Origin: Octopus vulgaris
Lineage: Eukaryota
Direction of reading: 5' to 3'
DNA length: 64,000 bases
Assembly: GCA_951406725.2 (NCBI GenBank)
Contig: OX597822.1
Span: forward strand, 53,692,001 to 53,756,000
The position numbers and the translations under genes are program-made. Of this stretch, positions 11,275-55,664 are shown piece by piece. Numbering within the stretch: position 1 is the stretch's first letter; each line of letters starts with the position of its first letter. The notes under the pieces were generated by a model, which had not been told where the DNA came from, did no database searches, and worked only from the letters and a program-made list of their open reading frames with translations.

Positions 11275-11821
11275 ACATGGTGGATGCCCCCTAGTTATCG
11301 AGTATGGCCATTGCGCGAAGCTTAATCAATGTTGTTATCGTGCAATGTTTGTGCAAGAAGATTTTTTTAAATGAGGAAAGGCTGTGCACTGAGTCAATCC
11401 CACTCACTAAGCAACAGCAGCCATAATCCGAAAAGAAGAACAAGTCAACATCATCGGTAACCACTGAGCCGCAGGTTTTATGTCGGAGTTATCCCAGTTA
11501 CCTGAGTTACCTTCTCCTAGAAGGATGCCCTAACAAAGGCTAGGAGTCCTTCACTCCCAATGATTTAACCGCGCGATCGGGTATTCAGTCCGATTATTTC
11601 TATGTCCCCGCGCATGATACAGGCTTAAGACATTTATTGGATGGTCGTTGACTCTCAAGAGTTCCTCCGCCCTTTGACGGATTTTATTTTCATCCCGCAG
11701 GGTGTACAATAAACACTCTCCTCACCAAGCAAGCTTGGTGGGGTTGCCGGTTTAGTCGCCGACGACCCGACCAGGTTGTACTGGGTTACATGTTACCAGT
11801 AGCACTCGAAAGTTACCTGAC
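11275..11821 (-). mobile_element. Non-autonomous RTE-derived retroelement (5' UTR plus 3' end, no ORF) with (TATG)n tail
   Basis: The minus strand carries an RTE 5'-UTR-like motif (GGGCATCCTTCTAGGAGAAGGTAACTC...AAAACC). Its 3' end TTAAGCTTCGCGCAATGGCCATACTCGATA matches the 3' end at 54865-54912. It is flanked by TATG repeats. Confidence 0.65.
11743..11821 (-). ncRNA. Candidate HDV-like self-cleaving ribozyme at the element's 5' end
   Basis: Manual fold: P1 GUCAGGU/ACCUGGU (7 bp, G1-U wobble), P2 CUGGU/ACCGG, P3 UGUA/UACA, L3 ACCCAG, J1/4 CGGG, P4 UCG/CGA, J4/2 CUAA. L3 is non-canonical and there is an AACA insert between P2 and P3. Confidence 0.45.
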
Positions 11822-11849
11822 ATAAACATACATACATATATATATATTC

Positions 11850-12087: not shown

Positions 12088-14490
12088 TCATTGTTCGACC
12101 GTGGAATTTACCATGTTGCGCCAGACTTCACGGTCCATCATAGCATTACGGAGGTCCTGTTGCTGGATGCCTGTATCCCTGGAGATTACATCAGGGTAGG
12201 AGAGTGTGCGCCCTCTGGTGTTGCGAGTAGATGGCTTCCAGAGGAGAAGAGTAGAAATTACTTCTTTTTCAGCTCTACAACAATGTCCAGCAAACTGGAC
12301 TCTCCTACCTTTCACAAGAGATGACACAGGTGGTAATTTCCCATATATTTGCATTTTAGTTGGATGGCGCCTCCACGAGAGATTTTGAGCTCTCATAAGG
12401 AGGCGAGTGTAGGTTCCATCCAACCGCCTCTCAAGCTTCTTTGATAACGTCCAGGTTTCTGAGCCATATAGTAGGATTGGTTCGACTGTGGCTTTGAATA
12501 TTTCAAGTTTGAAGTCTCTACTTAGATTTGATGACCAGATCTTACGCATGTCATTACAGGCTGACCAGGCCATACCCTTTCTAGTTAGAAAGTCTTTTCC
12601 AGATGATGATATGTATGACCCAAGATATTTATAATCAGAAACCATATTTAAAGGTGCACTGTTGAGAGTGTGGATGATGCAATCACTGTTGGACAGGCAC
12701 TTGTTTATGTATTCAGTTTTGGCCTCATTGAGGTAAAGACCTACACAATTTGAGGCTTGTTCAAGAGATTGTAAAAGAGACTGGGCATTGGAGAGAGAAT
12801 CACTGATAAGAGCGATGTCGTCAGCAAAGTCAGTGTCTGTCAAGTACTCAGCTGGGTGTCTGGAACTTCTTCTTGGTTTTATTTCAAAGCCCTTGCCAGA
12901 GATGGTATCAACTGACATACGTAGCACATAATCAACAACAATGAGGAAAAGAAATGGGGCGAGTGTGTCTCCCTGCAGTATTCCGGCTCCGATCGAGAAA
13001 GATGATGTTTCTCCATCAGGGGTTAAGATGGTTGAAGACGTATCTGTGTAGAGGACCTTGATGGCAGAAATAATTTTGTCTGGTATCCCATAGAGCTTAA
13101 GGATTTCAAACATCTTGTACCTATCTACAGAATCGAACGCTTTAGAAAAGTCTACAAATACCATTGCAAGATCGCGATTAAATGCTTTTGATTCTTCAAT
13201 AAGTCTGCGCAGGCATAGTATCTGGCTCAGCGTTGAGCGCCCATGTCTGAATCCATTTTGGTTCTTTCGGAGCAAAGGTTCAACAAAAAGGACAAGACGA
13301 TTTAGGATCAGTTTGTTGTACAGTTTTGCAGCAATTGACATTAGAGATATGCCCCTGTAGTTGGTGACGAGGGACAAATCGCCTTTTTTGGGTATTGGAA
13401 TGATTTGAGATTGGTGCCAAATCTTTGGAGCGACAAAGGTGGAAAGTGTGTGGTTGCAGAGGTTAAGCAAAAGTGTGTGAAATCTATCATCCTTCCAAAT
13501 CACAGCCGGAATGTTGTCGGGACCAAATGCTTTCGAGGCTTTTAGTTGCTTGGTGGCTGCTGTTAGTTCAAATATGGTAAAAGGGGAGGTGTTGATGTCC
13601 AGCGTGTCTGATATAGGCACACTTGGGAGAGTGGGGTTATCAGGGATTTTGGCATTCTTCCCAAGGAGGTTTTTAAAATGGGTTGACCAATTTTCTAAAC
13701 GCTTCTTAGCCGATCTCCCTTTAATTCTAATTGATGACCCAGAATTTTTGCCTGATAGGTCTTTGATGGATTTCCAGGCGAGATTGTGTTTTTTACTAAT
13801 GTGCTCTTTCGATAGTTTACTAATTTTGCCATTGATAAATTCGACCTCGGCGTTCAAGTAAGCCTCATCAAGATTCTTCCTGGCAGCTATGAGTTGGATC
13901 TTCAGTGACTGGGATGGAGAACGGTGGTAAGCTAGTGATATAGACTTTAGATGGTTTCTGGCTTCGATGACATTTGGGGAATTAGAAGGTTTGCTCTAGC
14001 CCCTACTCTTCCTTTTGGGAAGAGTAGCCAGTGCAACTTCCTCTGTTGATTTGATGAGGCTGCTGTATACTTCCTCAATGTTCTCAGCATCTATTTCAGA
14101 AGTAGACAGAGATTGAAATTTGTTATAGACCTCAATAGTAAATTGTTTGGACATATCGGGGTTAGATAAGACTTCCTCCCAGTCGATCATTTTGATCGGG
14201 TGAGGCTTAGTTTTTTTGGATGAGCGAAGACTAAGCTTAACGGTAGCTGATACAACTCTGTGGTCAGAGCCGACAGAACTAAAGGAAGAGTAGGATCTCG
14301 AGTCCTTAACACTATTGCGCCATTTCTTTCGAAAGATGAGGTAGTCAATTTGTGCCCTATCACCAAGTGGGGACTCAAATGTCCAAAGTTGACCTTTTGG
14401 TTTCATAAAAGAATTGTTGGAGGTGTAGAGATTAAATTCCTCCAAGAAGTCTTTGAGCATTTCTCCGTTCCGATTGCTTTCCAATGTGTG
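12088..14490 (-). pseudogene. RTE-clade LINE ORF (APE C-terminal part plus reverse transcriptase) with one premature stop
   Basis: Motifs NRNG, QIDY, SDH (APE) and NQNGFR, FVDFSKAFDSV, GILQGDTLAPFLF, FADD, YKYLGS, LLYGSETW (RT). ORFs 13996-14508 and 12088-13857 are in frame, separated only by TAG at 13996-13998. The 3' tail is (TGA)n running into (TA)n. Confidence 0.93.
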
Positions 14491-15089
14491 TAGTAGTGGC
14501 GCGCGCACACATTATTAGCCATTTGAAAAGACTATGGAATTTGCAATTAACTGCACCAGGGTTCCTCTTCCCCAGGGAACCAGACCTAATGGTATACCTG
14601 CGGATGTAGGTCCAGCCCCTGCTTTGCCGGGTCCTGTCTCTGATCATGTTGCACCTCCAAGGGCATCCATTGACGGTGATGCCCTCAATCTTAACAGACG
14701 GGTATCACCTGATGGAGAAGAGTCAGCCCCCAACCAAACAACACCAAACAAACACCTCATCAGCTGTAAAAATCATACTATACTCAGCACCCTCAATGCC
14801 CGCACCCTCGGCTCTCTTGGCCGTCTAGAAGAACTTGGTGCAAATGCAGAATCACATGGCATTGATATAATAGCTGTCCAAGAACACCGATTTTACCACC
14901 CTGACAACATCCTCAAATACCATCAAGTCGGTTCTTATCAACTTGTAACCTCCTCAGCATCAAAGAATACTGTTAATTCAACAGTTGGAGGTATCGGATT
15001 TCTACTTTATCAAAGGCTAGTGATACTCTCTTGAGTATAGAGTCAATCTCACCTAGAATTATGGTGCTTGAGATAGATGGAAACCCAAA

Positions 15090-17755: not shown

Positions 17756-18702
17756 ATATAATTATAATTAGGGTTCAGCTAATTGCTTCACCTCATAACG
17801 AATTTAGAAATAGGAGTTAAAATTCCTTTTCTGCTACTATAAGAATCTCCATGACGGTAAACAAACTTTTTTACGAAGGCAAAGAGAAAAACGATGAATC
17901 AACACGACCAGGATTAATTATATAGACGTTTCGAGATTAAAGGGATTTAAATTTTACTTACTTCTCTCTTCAGTATAATATTTCCAATTTATAAAATTTG
18001 AAAGTGCTAGGGCTGAATATGCACACAATCAAGCGACATCATGTAACAGATATCCAACCAACACTTCCAAAATTTACAGAGCCGAATGTGAATACACTAT
18101 TCAAACTCTATACCCACGTGTGTGCTACGAGCAATACCGCAGAAAACTGCAGTATTCTATCATGGAGTAAATTATAATTTTAAATTAATAATAGAAGAGT
18201 AAAATTTATTAATTAAATTGATTAATTGATTAATCAATTAATTAATAATTTTACCAAGTAGATCGGTACGTTAAAATAACCGTAATAGGTAAAATTCACC
18301 ACATAATTATAATTAGGATTCAGCTAATTGCTTCATCACATACCGAATTTAGAAATAGGAATTAAAATTCCTTTTCTGCTACTATAAGGATCTCCATGAC
18401 GGCAAACATGACGGTAAATCACTTTAATCTCGAAACGCCTATATAATTAATCCTGGTCGTGTTGATTCATTGCTTTTCCCTTTGCCTTCGTTATGGAGAT
18501 TCTTATAGTAGCAGAAAAGGAATTTTAACTCCTATTTCTAAATTCGGTATGTGGTGAAACAATTAGCTGAAACTTAATTATAATTATGTGGATAATTTTA
18601 CCTATAAAGGTTATTTTAACGTACCGATCTACTTGGTAAAATTATTAATTAATTGATTAATTAATTAATTAATTTAATAAATTTTACCCTTCTATTATTA
18701 AT
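17755..18702. mobile_element. PLE pseudo-LTR array (direct plus inverted copies) with hammerhead
   Basis: The block at 17755-17858 is repeated directly at 18302-18405. 18186-18400 is inverted at 18492-18702. A hammerhead lies on the minus strand at 17917-17979. Confidence 0.7.
17917..17979 (-). ncRNA. Type I minimal hammerhead ribozyme
   Basis: ATTATA-CTGAAGA-GAGA...TCTC-GAAA-CGTC-TA-TATAAT. Core intact, 6-bp stem I. Confidence 0.7.
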
Positions 18703-18719
18703 GTATATACATGTATATA

Positions 18720-25541: not shown

Positions 25542-25920
25542 ATATCAGAGTAATGGCGCTAAGCAGTGTTTACGTATAATCACAATTTAGGTTAGTTGCT
25601 AAAGGTAAATACACTGCAATTACCGTGGAGCAAAAATCTCTCTTATGATAAAATAGTGAGAAAATATCCAGTTCTTTCAGTGTCGCCCTCTCTCGGGGAT
25701 CTCAGTAAACTCGAAATATCGATGTCTGAGACTCCCGAGAGAGGGCAACACTGAACGAACTGGGTGTTTTCACACCTTTTAACCATGAGATATGATATTT
25801 TTTTCTCCACAGTAATTGCAATGTATTTGCCTTTAGCAGTTGAAATATGTGACAAACCTATTTCAATTAACCTAAATCGTGATTATGCGTAAACACTGCT
25901 TAGCGCCATTACTCCGATAT
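25542..25920. repeat. Foldback element (~160/190 bp arms) with a further direct copy of the right arm at 26047-26215
   Basis: CAGAGTAATGGCGCTAAGCAGTGTTTACG... versus ...CGTAAACACTGCTTAGCGCCATTACTCCG. ORFs 25643-25855 and 25974-26195 are near-identical. Confidence 0.8.
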
Positions 25921-38918: not shown

Positions 38919-38921
<3 letters not shown>

Positions 38922-40310
38922 CAAAATAAAAACATGATGCCAAGGATTCAGCGGTACATATGTTTCGGGCCTTTATTAGACGGATTTATAACAATGCATA
39001 ATGTGTGTCTATGGCCTTCTTCAGCCGCGCACAACTACTACCTCAAGGACATGCATTACATCAGAAATTCTACGTTGGGGATGCAAATCCTCTCATTCGC
39101 GTACGACATAATGCGGCAACAGCATAAAAATGAAGCGTCCATCTCGTCCTTCTCTCAATGTAGAATGAGGAAGTTTGGATGTTGAGGTAACATAAATAAA
39201 TGAATAAATAAATATATACATATATAAATACAGACAGACGTGAAGGAACCTGGTAATAAGAGCAAATAGGGATAAAGATGGAGGGGCGAGAATTCAGGAC
39301 GAAGGATAAAAAAATATATAAAAAGTGTAAGTATAGAAAAATATAAAAATGTAGAGTATAAAGACGCGCATATGTACGTACATACATACACTCACATGCG
39401 TTCATATAGGCACACTCGCACTTACACGCATGTACAAGACGAAGTGAATGTCTATGCGTGTGGGCAGGAATATGTATACACCTGCACTCGCGTCCACCCC
39501 CACGCACATGGGGGAGTAGATCGCTATGCCTATACACATGCGTGTACGTATGTACATGATGACCACTTAATACGTTACGAAGAACTAGATAAACGGCTCA
39601 ACAACTCTAATTTACAATACACTAGGTCCCCAGACGCCCCGGTTGATTTATGACACCCAAGGCTTCTACAACCAGAATTTGTCATTTTCCTGACCACCAT
39701 GTTTGGTCCGTAACTACTATATATCCCTTATCCTTATATTCTTTTACATTCCTACACTCTTATACCCTTTATACTTCTGATAATTTTTTTATTTTTTTAT
39801 TTTTTATAACTTTATACCTTTATATTCATTTATATTTTTTTATATTTTTTTATATCTCTTTATATCTTTATACTCTACATTTTTATATTTTTCTATACTT
39901 ACACTTTTTATATGTTTTTTTATCCTTCGTCCTGAATTCTCGCCCCTCCATCTTTATCCCTATTTGCTCTTATTACCAGGTTCCTTCACGTCTGTCTGTA
40001 TTTATATATGTATATATTTATTTATTCATTTATTTATGTTACCTCAACATCCAAACTTCCTCATTCTACATTGAGAGAAGGACGAGATGGACGCTTCATT
40101 TTTATGCTGTTGCCGCATTATGTCGTACGCGAATGAGAGGATTTGCATCCCCAACGTAGAATTTCTGATGTAATACATATCCTTGAGGTAGTAGTTGTGC
40201 GCGGCTGAAGAAGGCCATAGACACACATTATGCATTGTTATAAATCCGTCTAATAAAGGCCCGAAACATATGTACCGCTGAATCCTTGGCATCATGTTTT
40301 TAATTTGATT
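38919..40310. repeat. ~445 bp near-perfect inverted repeat (38919-39364 / 39865-40310): PLE pseudo-LTR with inverted copy
   Basis: Near-identical mirrored translations in the ORF track. An HHR sits in each arm. Confidence 0.9.
40201..40278 (+). ncRNA. Type I hammerhead ribozyme (mirror copy on the minus strand at 38951-39028)
   Basis: GCGG-CTGAAGA-AGGCC...GGCCC-GAAA-CATATG-TA-CCGC. Stem I is GCGG/CCGC, stem III is the palindrome ACATATGT, and predicted cleavage is after A40274. Confidence 0.8.
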
Positions 40311-46422: not shown

Positions 46423-46907
46423 ATAGTTATGGATTCTTGTCTATGATTGTTTAAGCAGCAGTAGTAGTAAAGGAAGTGGGTGGCCGAGAATAATAATAAG
46501 AAGAATTATAAAAGAATGCTGGAGTGGTATGATAGTAGTAGGATGTTAAATGGTCAAGTGCCCTGAAAGTGACCTGTTGTGGATGATAGTAGTGATTGGG
46601 ACTGTTTTTAATTAATTCTTGAGGTATCTCTTTTGAATGTATCATTTTTAATAATTTAATATATCCACCTAAATATTAAAAATGATACATTCAAAAGAGA
46701 TACCTCAAGAATTAATTAAAAACAGTCCCAATCACTACTACCATCCACAACAGGTCACTTTCAGGGCACTTGACCATTTAACATCCTACTACTATCATAC
46801 CACTCCAGCATTCTTTTATAATTCTTATTATTATTATTATTCTCGGCCACCCACTTCCTTTACTACTACTGCTGCTTAAACAATCATAGACAAGAATCCA
46901 TAACTAT
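46423..46907. repeat. ~230 bp-arm near-perfect hairpin (46423-46652 / 46674-46907)
   Basis: ORFs 46451-46645(-) and 46682-46879(+) are near-identical. The spacer is 21 nt. Confidence 0.9.
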
Positions 46908-54539: not shown

Positions 54540-54912
54540 GATGCTGACATGCAGTGTCTGTGCAAGACCCTGCCTCAGTAAAGCTGGACTCAAGAGTCAT
54601 CTTCGTAGTCATAAAGCGAGACAGATGAGTGACAACCTGGCCACTGGTGGTGGTGTAACACACCATACTAATCATATCTGTCGGGCATGTGGAAGAGAGT
54701 GTAATTCGGCAGGAGGACTTAAACGACATGCAAAGGTACATGAAGCCCAGTTACAACTACAGCCGGCTATTACCGGTAAAGGTTTTAGTTGCCAGTTCTG
54801 TACAAGACATTGTAGATCTTTAGCTGGGCTAAAAAGTCACATTCGATCACAGCACCAGTAACAGTTAAGCTTCGTGCAATGGCCACATTCGATAGAGAGG
54901 GGACAGCCATAA
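54540..54912 (+). mobile_element. 3' end of an RTE-like LINE encoding three C2H2 zinc fingers
   Basis: CSVC..SKAGLKSHLRSH, CRAC..SAGGLKRHAKVH and CQFC..SLAGLKSHIRSQH. Short 3' UTR shared with 11275-11325. (TATG)n on both sides. Confidence 0.7.
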
Positions 54913-55664
54913 TGCATGTATGTATGTATGTATGTATGTATGTATGTATGTATGTATGTATGCATGCAGAGAGAGAGAGGAGTGGTAATACGCGTACCCT
55001 TAACGTAGTTCTCGGGGAGATTCAGCGTGACACAGAGTGTGACATTGTTGCACTCTGAAATACAGGTAAGACAGAAACAGTAAGAAAGAGTGAAAGAAAG
55101 TTGTGGTAAAAGTGTACACCAGGTTTCGCCACCACCCCCTGCCGGAGCCTCGTGGAGCTTTAGGCGTTTTTGCTCAATAAACACTCACACCTGGTCTGGG
55201 AATCGAAACCACGATCCTACGACCGCGAGTCCGCTGCCCTAACAACTGGAGCATTGCACCTCGTATGTATGTATGTATGCAGAGAGAGAGAGAGGAGTGG
55301 TAATAAAAAATTTTTTTTATTTTTATTTATGCGCCCTTTTCAAGCCTAGCCACGCTCATGGGCCCGGTTTCCCGGTTTCTGTGGCGTATGTGTTCCCCCC
55401 AGCTAGAAGGGACGCCAGTCCATCGCATCGTTACTCAAGAAACAGGAAGAAAGACTGAGAGAAAGTTGGGGCGAAAGAGTACAACAGGGATCTCCACCAC
55501 CCCCTGCCGGAGCCTCATAGAGCTTTTATATGTTTCCACTCAATAAATACACACAACGCCCGGTCTGAGAATCGAAGCCGCGATCCTCCGACAGCGAGTC
55601 CGCTGCCCTAACCACTGGGCCATTGCGCATCCACAGTAATAAGAAATAGCGATGACAAAAGAAT

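What the first reader, a model, noticed from the sequence alone, without database searches (positions are those of the whole stretch)
11743..11821. HDV-like pseudoknot starting exactly at the 5' nucleotide of a non-autonomous RTE element
Seen in sequence: the minus strand, from the element's boundary with TATG repeats, reads GUCAGGU aacuuucgagugcua CUGGU aaca UGUA acccag UACA ACCUGGU cggg UCG ucgg CGA CUAA ACCGG. This gives a 7-bp P1 with G1-U wobble, P2, P3, a possible CC/GG P1.1, a short P4 and a C-U-A-A J4/2, in HDV order. Established: HDV-like ribozymes process the 5' ends of R2 and some RTE retrotransposons. Inference: this is a ribozyme-headed, ORF-less retroelement family that cuts itself out of read-through transcripts instead of using a Pol III head. 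Caveats: L3 lacks the canonical U20, and a 4-nt insert separates P2 from P3.
Basis: partly seen in the sequence, partly recalled or inferred. Interest (0 to 1): 0.75.

Follow-up and report, generated by a model that had tools for sequence, protein, structure and literature searches.

The report
Portable RNA head on RTE retrotransposons

Summary
The element is real: window 11278-11823 (minus) belongs to a family of >1,000 copies. It consists of nt 1-~508 and the last ~48 nt of a 4.2-kb autonomous RTE LINE found in this genome, a known design (bipartite non-autonomous RTE). The head is inherited from the LINE. It also sits on about ten other LINE families and five metagenome families, some with only 25-30% endonuclease identity. 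Its outer hairpins covary strongly. This fold is non-canonical: interrupted P1, 4-6 nt between P2 and P3, purine instead of U20. A rival fold stacks better, and the core is too invariant for covariation to decide. No Rfam match. Self-cleavage about 60%; HDV-like register about 45%. The scan noted similar ribozyme-headed mini-RTEs in other genomes; no look-alike of this sequence.

The parts
11278..11823 (-). Whole element: bipartite non-autonomous RTE copy (~546 nt; family ~555 nt), 95.7% to the family consensus
11826..11838 (-). Upstream copy of a 13-nt target-site duplication inside TATG microsatellite (ambiguous because the target is a simple repeat)
   Evidence: row L001
11263..11275 (-). 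Downstream copy of the target-site duplication / microsatellite tail
11822..11825 (-).
11639..11823 (-). Conserved ~190-nt structured head module, shared with other LINE families in this genome and in metagenome contigs
11815..11823 (-). Predicted P1 5' strand (A-2 U-1 G1, unpaired U2, C3-U7)
   Evidence: inference
11803..11814 (-). Variable J1/2 hairpin (P1.2-like) with two-sided changes between families; first pair broken in this copy
11795..11799 (-). Predicted P2 5' strand (in the rival fold part of a 6-bp hairpin with 11779-11784)
11791..11794 (-). 4-nt insert between P2 and P3 (6 nt in L167/L168); last two bases invariant; non-canonical for HDV
11777..11790 (-). Predicted P3 and L3 (purine at the U20-equivalent position; invariant C..G.U)
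11771..11772 (-). Site of the private 7-nt deletion (family nt 51-57), which removes the distal P1 3' strand and the first G of the invariant GG; this copy is predicted inactive
11756..11770 (-). Predicted P4 (3 bp, nt 59-61 with 71-73) and its loop
11752..11755 (-).
11747..11751 (-). Predicted P2 3' strand
11639..11740 (-). Downstream hairpins of the head, with strong covariation
11326..11638 (-). Rest of the RTE 5' UTR, including the CTAGGAGAAGG motif at 11510-11520 (112 occurrences in the RTE alignments of PMC5786205's supplement)
11278..11325 (-). 3' tail, 91-93% identical (consensus 93-100%) to the last ~45-48 nt of the autonomous partner LINE

Best explanation
The stretch is the deletion-damaged head of a bipartite non-autonomous RTE element whose conserved ~190-nt 5' RNA module likely folds as a non-canonical HDV-like double pseudoknot and would cut itself out of read-through transcripts 5' of the purine at 11823. 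Shown: the element is the 5' UTR plus 3' tail of an autonomous APE-RT LINE; the head is shared across divergent LINEs; its outer hairpins covary; copies begin at R-T-G. Inferred: the partner's protein binds the 3' tail and copies the RNA by target-primed reverse transcription into TATG/AT/GT repeats, adding 0-3 non-templated bases. Also inferred: P1 is R(-2).U56, U(-1)-A55, G1-C54, a 1x3 loop, then C3-U7 with A46-G50. The invariant G57/G58 form P1.1 with C38/Y37, a 3-bp P4 follows, and C74 (11755) is the catalytic C. This copy, lacking nt 51-57, would not cut.
For: Partner: 3 of 20 loci are full-length LINEs and 2 more have an inverted 5' end, each carrying element nt 1-~508 at 95-97%, with Exo_endo_phos and RVT_1 domains. 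5' boundary: 11 of 19 tail-anchored element copies start at nt 1, the other 8 at scattered sites. R-T precedes G1 in 17 of 25 non-microsatellite junctions against a background of 0.23, p~2e-6 (one of the 25 is a false anchor). R-T also ends the extra bases beyond the duplication in 11 of 13 copies that have extras (my count) and stands at 2 of 4 inversion junctions, where no target DNA is adjacent. That R pairs with exactly the base before the invariant GG, as HDV geometry demands. L167/L168 have two more bases on the 5' strand and still pair AUG with CAU. The revised descriptor fits 7 of 16 family rows plus L170, always starting at AUG, and 0 of 5,000 shuffles. J1/2 carries a covarying hairpin, as in fast HDV-like ribozymes (PMC4908430 passages). 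RTE 5' ribozymes are reported (PMC5786205, PMC6765202 passages, citing Ruminski 2011).
Against: No cleavage or RNA 5'-end data. The U20 position is A or G; U-to-A mutants were inactive and G/G was 470-fold slower in the antigenomic HDV ribozyme (PMC3386971 section 5). P1 is interrupted and longer than 6-7 bp, P2 is 4-5 bp with wobbles, and 4-6 nt separate P2 from P3. A rival fold has better stacking, -41.7 against -32.6 kcal/mol, and explains invariant U21, A22, C30, A31. Pseudoknot-free folding picks the rival hairpin in 4 of 5 heads and P3 in none. Covariation of the revised core is weak (14-38 of 500 shuffles as high on four measures, 424 of 500 on the fifth). Its best pair (60-72) is probably CpG decay: 10 of 11 copies of that family keep C60. 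Single copies do not favour either fold (37 vs 28 of 63; 8 vs 10 of 17). No Rfam ribozyme model hits. A purine start also fits a Pol II start site.
Confidence: 0.45

Rival explanations
1. The head is a structured but non-catalytic 5' module: an internal Pol II promoter that starts at R(-2), plus RNA structure that protects the end, helps translation or is bound by the RTE protein. The HDV-order pairing is incidental.
For: A start on a purine after a pyrimidine fits an initiator (general knowledge). The rival fold is more stable. The HDV signature U.G pair is missing. A ~70-nt 5' module shared by unrelated LINEs and SINEs was proposed as a promoter (PMC4758252 section 10).
Against: A G at -3, expected if a cap were reverse-transcribed, is rare (1 of 65; that RTE copies caps is not established). 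Spacing downstream of the start varies with hairpin length. R(-2) pairs right next to the invariant GG.
Confidence: 0.35
2. The head self-cleaves at its 5' end but through the rival fold: a three-way junction (3-7/46-50, 8-19, 21-26/38-43), a CAUG/CAUG pseudoknot (30-33/54-57) and a 58-83 hairpin with a UAAA bulge. That would be a ribozyme of no described class.
For: 91.7% paired in 13 families; best stacking energy; 0 of 1,500 shuffles fit its descriptor; core 83-95% identical across families with 25-55% endonuclease identity, one decayed copy 69%; precise 5' end.
Against: No covariation beyond shuffles (92-438 of 500); its descriptor fails the old family, L165 and L170; no recognisable catalytic motif; leaves U34, A35, C44, A45 unexplained.
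Confidence: 0.15
3. One reading: a 7-bp P1 from the G at 11821 with cleavage there.
For: Fits the window copy, 0 of 3,000 shuffles; G1 can pair with U52 or C52 in 11 of 13 representatives.
Against: Needs a deletion present at 3 places genome-wide; without it pair 2 is U.U and no conserved G follows P1 (P1.1 15% paired); the conserved boundary lies two bases upstream.
Confidence: 0.05

Closest known systems
Bipartite ORF-less non-autonomous RTE LINEs (RTESINE1/2, WALLSI3, MAR4_MD, Bov-A; Kojima 2018, PMC5786205, passages and supplement search)
   Same: 5' UTR joined to the 3' end of an RTE partner, microsatellite tail, no Pol III head; the paper notes that such elements keep the LINE's 5' end and links this to 5' ribozymes.
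   Different: The head motifs were not found in that supplement as part of such a module (only the downstream CTAGGAGAAGG motif is common). No structure is described there.
R2 SIDEs and R2 5' HDV-like ribozymes (PMC3414825 abstract; PMC3774820 passages and sections 12, 15)
   Same: Ribozyme-headed internally deleted elements; in many R2 lineages the cut lies upstream of the apparent junction; P2 mismatches and a reduced P4 are tolerated.
   Different: R2 P1 is 6-7 bp and uninterrupted near the cut, with a conserved L3 G.U pair; R2 is site-specific in 28S rDNA. Here P1 is 3+5 bp with a loop, there is a P2/P3 insert and activity is untested.
Pr77 hallmark of L1Tc/NARTc/ingi/RIME/SIDER (PMC4035085 passages; PMC3383444 search listing)
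   Same: A short 5' module shared by otherwise different LINEs and their short derivatives, with both promoter and HDV-like ribozyme roles and a reported refolding switch.
   Different: 77 nt, canonical HDV core, trypanosomatid ingi clade. This module is ~190 nt, with added hairpins and a non-canonical core.
LP-SINE head shared by Nimb, I and RTE-9_CPB LINEs (PMC4758252 section 10)
   Same: A 5' module exchanged between LINE families and used as the head of non-autonomous elements in molluscs.
   Different: ~70 nt, proposed promoter. This head's motifs were absent from the 4 supplement files searched (file 1 and figures not seen), so identity is not excluded but not indicated.
Twister T-variants at the 5' end of Perere-3 (PMC8501958 passages)
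   Same: Non-LTR element whose 5' end is made by a ribozyme, with the junction bases next to the duplication.
   Different: Products begin with AA and carry twister consensus; no twister model hits here.

Membership tests
Bipartite non-autonomous RTE element | 5' part matches the 5' end of an autonomous LINE | tested here: met
   nt 1-~508 at 95-97% in 5 of 20 partner loci
Bipartite non-autonomous RTE element | 3' end matches the same LINE's 3' end | tested here: met
   last 37-48 nt at 93-100% in 20 of 20 loci
Bipartite non-autonomous RTE element | No ORF, no tRNA-derived head, many dispersed copies with duplications | tested here: met
   duplications clear in 8 of 43 copies, the rest lie in simple repeats or show none
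Bipartite non-autonomous RTE element | Partner belongs to the RTE clade | tested here: inconclusive
   APE and RT domains and the RTE UTR motif; no RT tree with named references was built; the WNVRT-type start as an RTE sign is recalled
HDV-like ribozyme | Helices in the order P1, P2, P3, P1.1, P4 with the first base pairing next to P1.1 | tested here: met
   revised register only: 7 of 16 family rows plus L170, 0 of 5,000 shuffles; not met in the window copy
HDV-like ribozyme | Continuous 6-7 bp P1 | tested here: not met
HDV-like ribozyme | P2 stacked directly on P3 | tested here: not met
   4-6 nt insert in all families
HDV-like ribozyme | L3 U.G trans wobble (U20.G25) | tested here: not met
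   G invariant, partner A or G; signature per PMC3386971
HDV-like ribozyme | P1.1 C-G pair | tested here: met
   C38-G57 13 of 13; 37-58 11 of 13; invariant, so no covariation
HDV-like ribozyme | Catalytic C and A in J4/2 | tested here: met
   C74 and CUAA conserved in all 13 rows; role untested
HDV-like ribozyme | Covariation of core helices | tested here: inconclusive
HDV-like ribozyme | Match to an Rfam HDV-type model | tested here: not met
HDV-like ribozyme | Mg2+-dependent self-cleavage at the P1 5' end | not testable with these tools
   needs bench assay
Twister, twister-sister, pistol, hatchet, hammerhead | Match to the family's model or core motif | tested here: not met
   no Rfam hit at E<=10 or E<=1; by eye the bases after P1b vary freely

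The most novel reading that the evidence does not exclude
A previously undescribed ~190-nt self-cleaving RNA module, either an HDV-like ribozyme with an interrupted P1, a P2/P3 insert and a purine in place of U20, or a new fold. It is portable: swapped as a unit between LINE lineages with 25-30% endonuclease identity in several animals, perhaps also onto a non-RTE element (L167/L168), and it defines their RNA 5' ends.
Probability: 0.3. Interest if true: 0.8.

Novelty: new variant of a known kind. Interest (0 to 1): 0.5.

Why it matters
How RTE elements get full-length RNA 5' ends (internal promoter or ribozyme) is noted as open in PMC5786205, and RTE UTRs are being engineered for gene insertion (PMC13708176 passages). 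A near-invariant core with a predicted cut site and catalytic C makes this a one-afternoon test. If it cuts, it widens the HDV rule set or adds a ribozyme class that current Rfam models miss. If it does not, it is still an undescribed structured 5' module exchanged between retrotransposon lineages. The element design itself is ordinary.

Tried and rejected
Rfam scans of the window and of heads: no ribozyme family. ARAGORN: no tRNA in 4 of 4 loci. The neighbouring LINE at 12088-14500 is not the partner: different tail, no head match. L077/L111 looked like the partner (tail 78% over 49 nt) until the true one was found. One search seemed to favour the rival fold (0 of 500 shuffles), but two helices were misregistered and the signal came from hairpins common to both folds; redone. 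The 60-72 two-sided change was first taken as support for P4, then discounted as CpG decay. The first 29 copies were found with a query that held 9 flank bases, so they were left out of the junction counts. Alignments A1 (two rows on the wrong strand) and A3 (L168 misaligned) were not used. Sequencing runs: no RNA holder listed, contigs only; laying four runs showed the family at high depth in two other organisms but cannot show 5' ends. Viral and prokaryotic collections gave no homologue (the one genome hit is chance). 8 of 15 metagenome hits were chance matches. Pfam gave nothing for the short frame behind the L168 head. Ruminski 2011 and Webb 2009 were not held, so whether this head is among their RTE ribozymes could not be checked. 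Literature searches showed no description of this module; Repbase and Dfam were not searchable.

Full report
Numbering. G at 11821 is nt 1 of the family; A at 11823 is -2. Up to nt 50 the window position is 11822 minus n; from nt 58 it is 11829 minus n.

1. Observation. A genome search gave 1,129 candidates; the 40 scored include 39 other copies at 93-95%. A 16-letter head pattern has 2,534 matches against 75 for its control (related families included). All 29 other aligned copies carry bases after ACCTG that the window copy lacks. The deleted form occurs at 3 places, and the other two do not share the window copy's other changes; the intact core has 1,837 exact matches. So the 7-bp P1 and the following GG come from a private deletion.

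2. What the element is. Thirty loci anchored on the tail were 19 element-type copies and 11 3' fragments of a LINE with the same tail. Of 20 loci of that LINE, 3 are full length (~4.2 kb) and 2 have an inverted 5' end; these 5 carry element nt 1-~508 at 95-97%, and all 20 carry the tail. Its frames have endonuclease and RT domains. The UTR motif at 11510-11520 is frequent in published RTE alignments. The element is thus an internally deleted RTE derivative. No ORF or tRNA was found. This class is described in PMC5786205 (passages), and ribozyme-headed examples in PMC3414825 (abstract) and PMC4035085 (passages).

3. The head is a shared module. The first ~190 nt also head other LINE families in this genome (A, B, C, D and F with endonuclease frames; E, G, H, I and an older short family without one seen). 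A metagenome pattern scan gave 15 hits, 7 of them true homologues in 5 families. Endonuclease identity to the partner is 38-55% within the genome and 25-30% for L164 and L165, while the heads are 66-94% identical and the core (nt 19-83) 83-95%, with one decayed copy at 69%. The scan pattern fixed 18 core bases in the metagenome hits, so these cannot test variation there. Five outer helices covary strongly: 10 of 20 pairs with two-sided changes, 0 of 500 shuffles as high on all five measures (related sequences can beat this control, and I chose the helices from these sequences). The head is therefore very likely a folded RNA under selection. Rfam has no match.

4. The 5' end. 11 of 19 tail-anchored copies start at nt 1; 8 are truncated at 34, 49, 52, 98, 160, 215, 421 and 440. 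In 65 anchored copies of 87 tried, chosen without flank in the query, -1 is T in 62 and -2 is A or G in 58. Outside microsatellites R-T stands there in 17 of 25 against a background of 0.23, and -3 is more mixed. Where extra bases lie between the duplication and nt 1 they mostly end in R-T. Two of four inversion junctions also show R-T. I infer that the RNA begins at R(-2) and that up to three non-templated bases are added. Non-templated A addition plus target microhomology could explain part of this: 5 of 25 show TT.

5. A revised HDV-order fold. With R(-2) as first base, P1 is (-2,-1,1)/(56,55,54), a 1x3 loop, and 3-7/50-46. P3 (32-35/42-45) abuts P1. The invariant G57 and G58 follow P1 and can pair with C38 and Y37. 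A 3-bp P4 (59-61/71-73) starts after GG and ends before C74; CUAA leads to P2 (23-27/78-82). J1/2 holds the variable hairpin. This is 90.9% paired. The descriptor fits 7 of 16 family rows and L170, always from AUG, and 0 of 5,000 shuffles; the 9 misses have ambiguous consensus ends or are single damaged copies. In L168 the 5' strand is two bases longer and the predicted fold still pairs AUGG with UCAU. The window copy does not fit.

6. Against it. The core barely varies, so covariation is weak, and the 60-72 change is probably CpG decay. Three HDV features fail: continuous 6-7 bp P1 (PMC3774820 and PMC4908430 passages), P2 stacked on P3, and the L3 U.G pair, where U-to-A was inactive in HDV (PMC3386971 section 5). 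A rival fold (3-7/46-50, 21-26/38-43, 30-33/54-57, 58-62/79-83, 63-66/71-74) is 91.7% paired without covariation, about 9 kcal/mol better in stacking, and preferred in part by pseudoknot-free folding in 4 of 5 heads. Each fold leaves some invariant bases unexplained; a switch between them, as reported for L1Tc (PMC4035085 passage), is possible. A Pol II start at R(-2) explains the boundary equally well.

7. Verdict. I do not file it as a member of the HDV-like family, because three defining features were tested and not met. The element design is known; the module and its fold were not found in the searches listed, but Ruminski 2011, Webb 2009, Repbase, Dfam, figures and one supplement file of PMC4758252 were not seen. 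Earlier scan notes e1-8157735 and e1-8169143 describe similar mini-RTEs with unusual folds in other genomes (unchecked, not counted as support); a look-up by sequence found nothing. Other papers seen: PMC6765202, PMC8501958, PMC13282606, PMC13708176 (passages). Interest 0.5; new variant of a known kind.

Noticed in passing
window 12088-14500 (-): A different, damaged APE-RT LINE (634-aa frame with RVT_1, E 5e-31) with a (TGA)n tail lies 250 nt from the element; it lacks this head.
   Followed up: partly
L167 / L168, about 230-700 nt behind the head: The head precedes a short element with a WNING-type endonuclease start and an (ATT)n tail, which resembles CR1/L2-group ends (recalled, not tested; Pfam blank). 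It would be module exchange beyond RTE.
   Followed up: partly
L031, L034, L039, L052 and about 20 more of L031-L060: Another autonomous RTE-like family begins with a G run and a long hairpin followed by GCUAAU or GCUUAU; my HDV descriptor and model R1 did not fit it.
   Followed up: partly
L074:355-830, L132-L160: An older short family (about 70% pairwise, 463 candidates) with the same head, so the head has seeded short derivatives more than once.
   Followed up: partly
L207, L213, L269, L275, L292, L294, L296: A second deletion junction of the same partner, keeping about 100 nt more; also L066, a short derivative of family A with its own duplication.
   Followed up: partly
L047, L212, L250, L253: Copies with an inverted 5' part, as in twin priming.
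   Followed up: partly
L072, L104, L127, L301, L302: Short tandem duplications of the first 20-30 nt of the head, suggesting template re-starts at the RNA 5' end.
   Followed up: no
head nt 5-8 with 184-187 (window 11814-11817 with 11643-11646): RNAalifold pairs the two ends of the module; conserved but without covariation, and it competes with P1.
   Followed up: no
window 38920-40309, 46423-46907, 18181-18705, 25542-25920: Long inverted repeats (99% over 445 nt; 96%; 84%; 72%), probably foldback or MITE-like elements.
   Followed up: no
window 54865-54928: An isolated 3' tail fragment like the element's, 82%.
   Followed up: no
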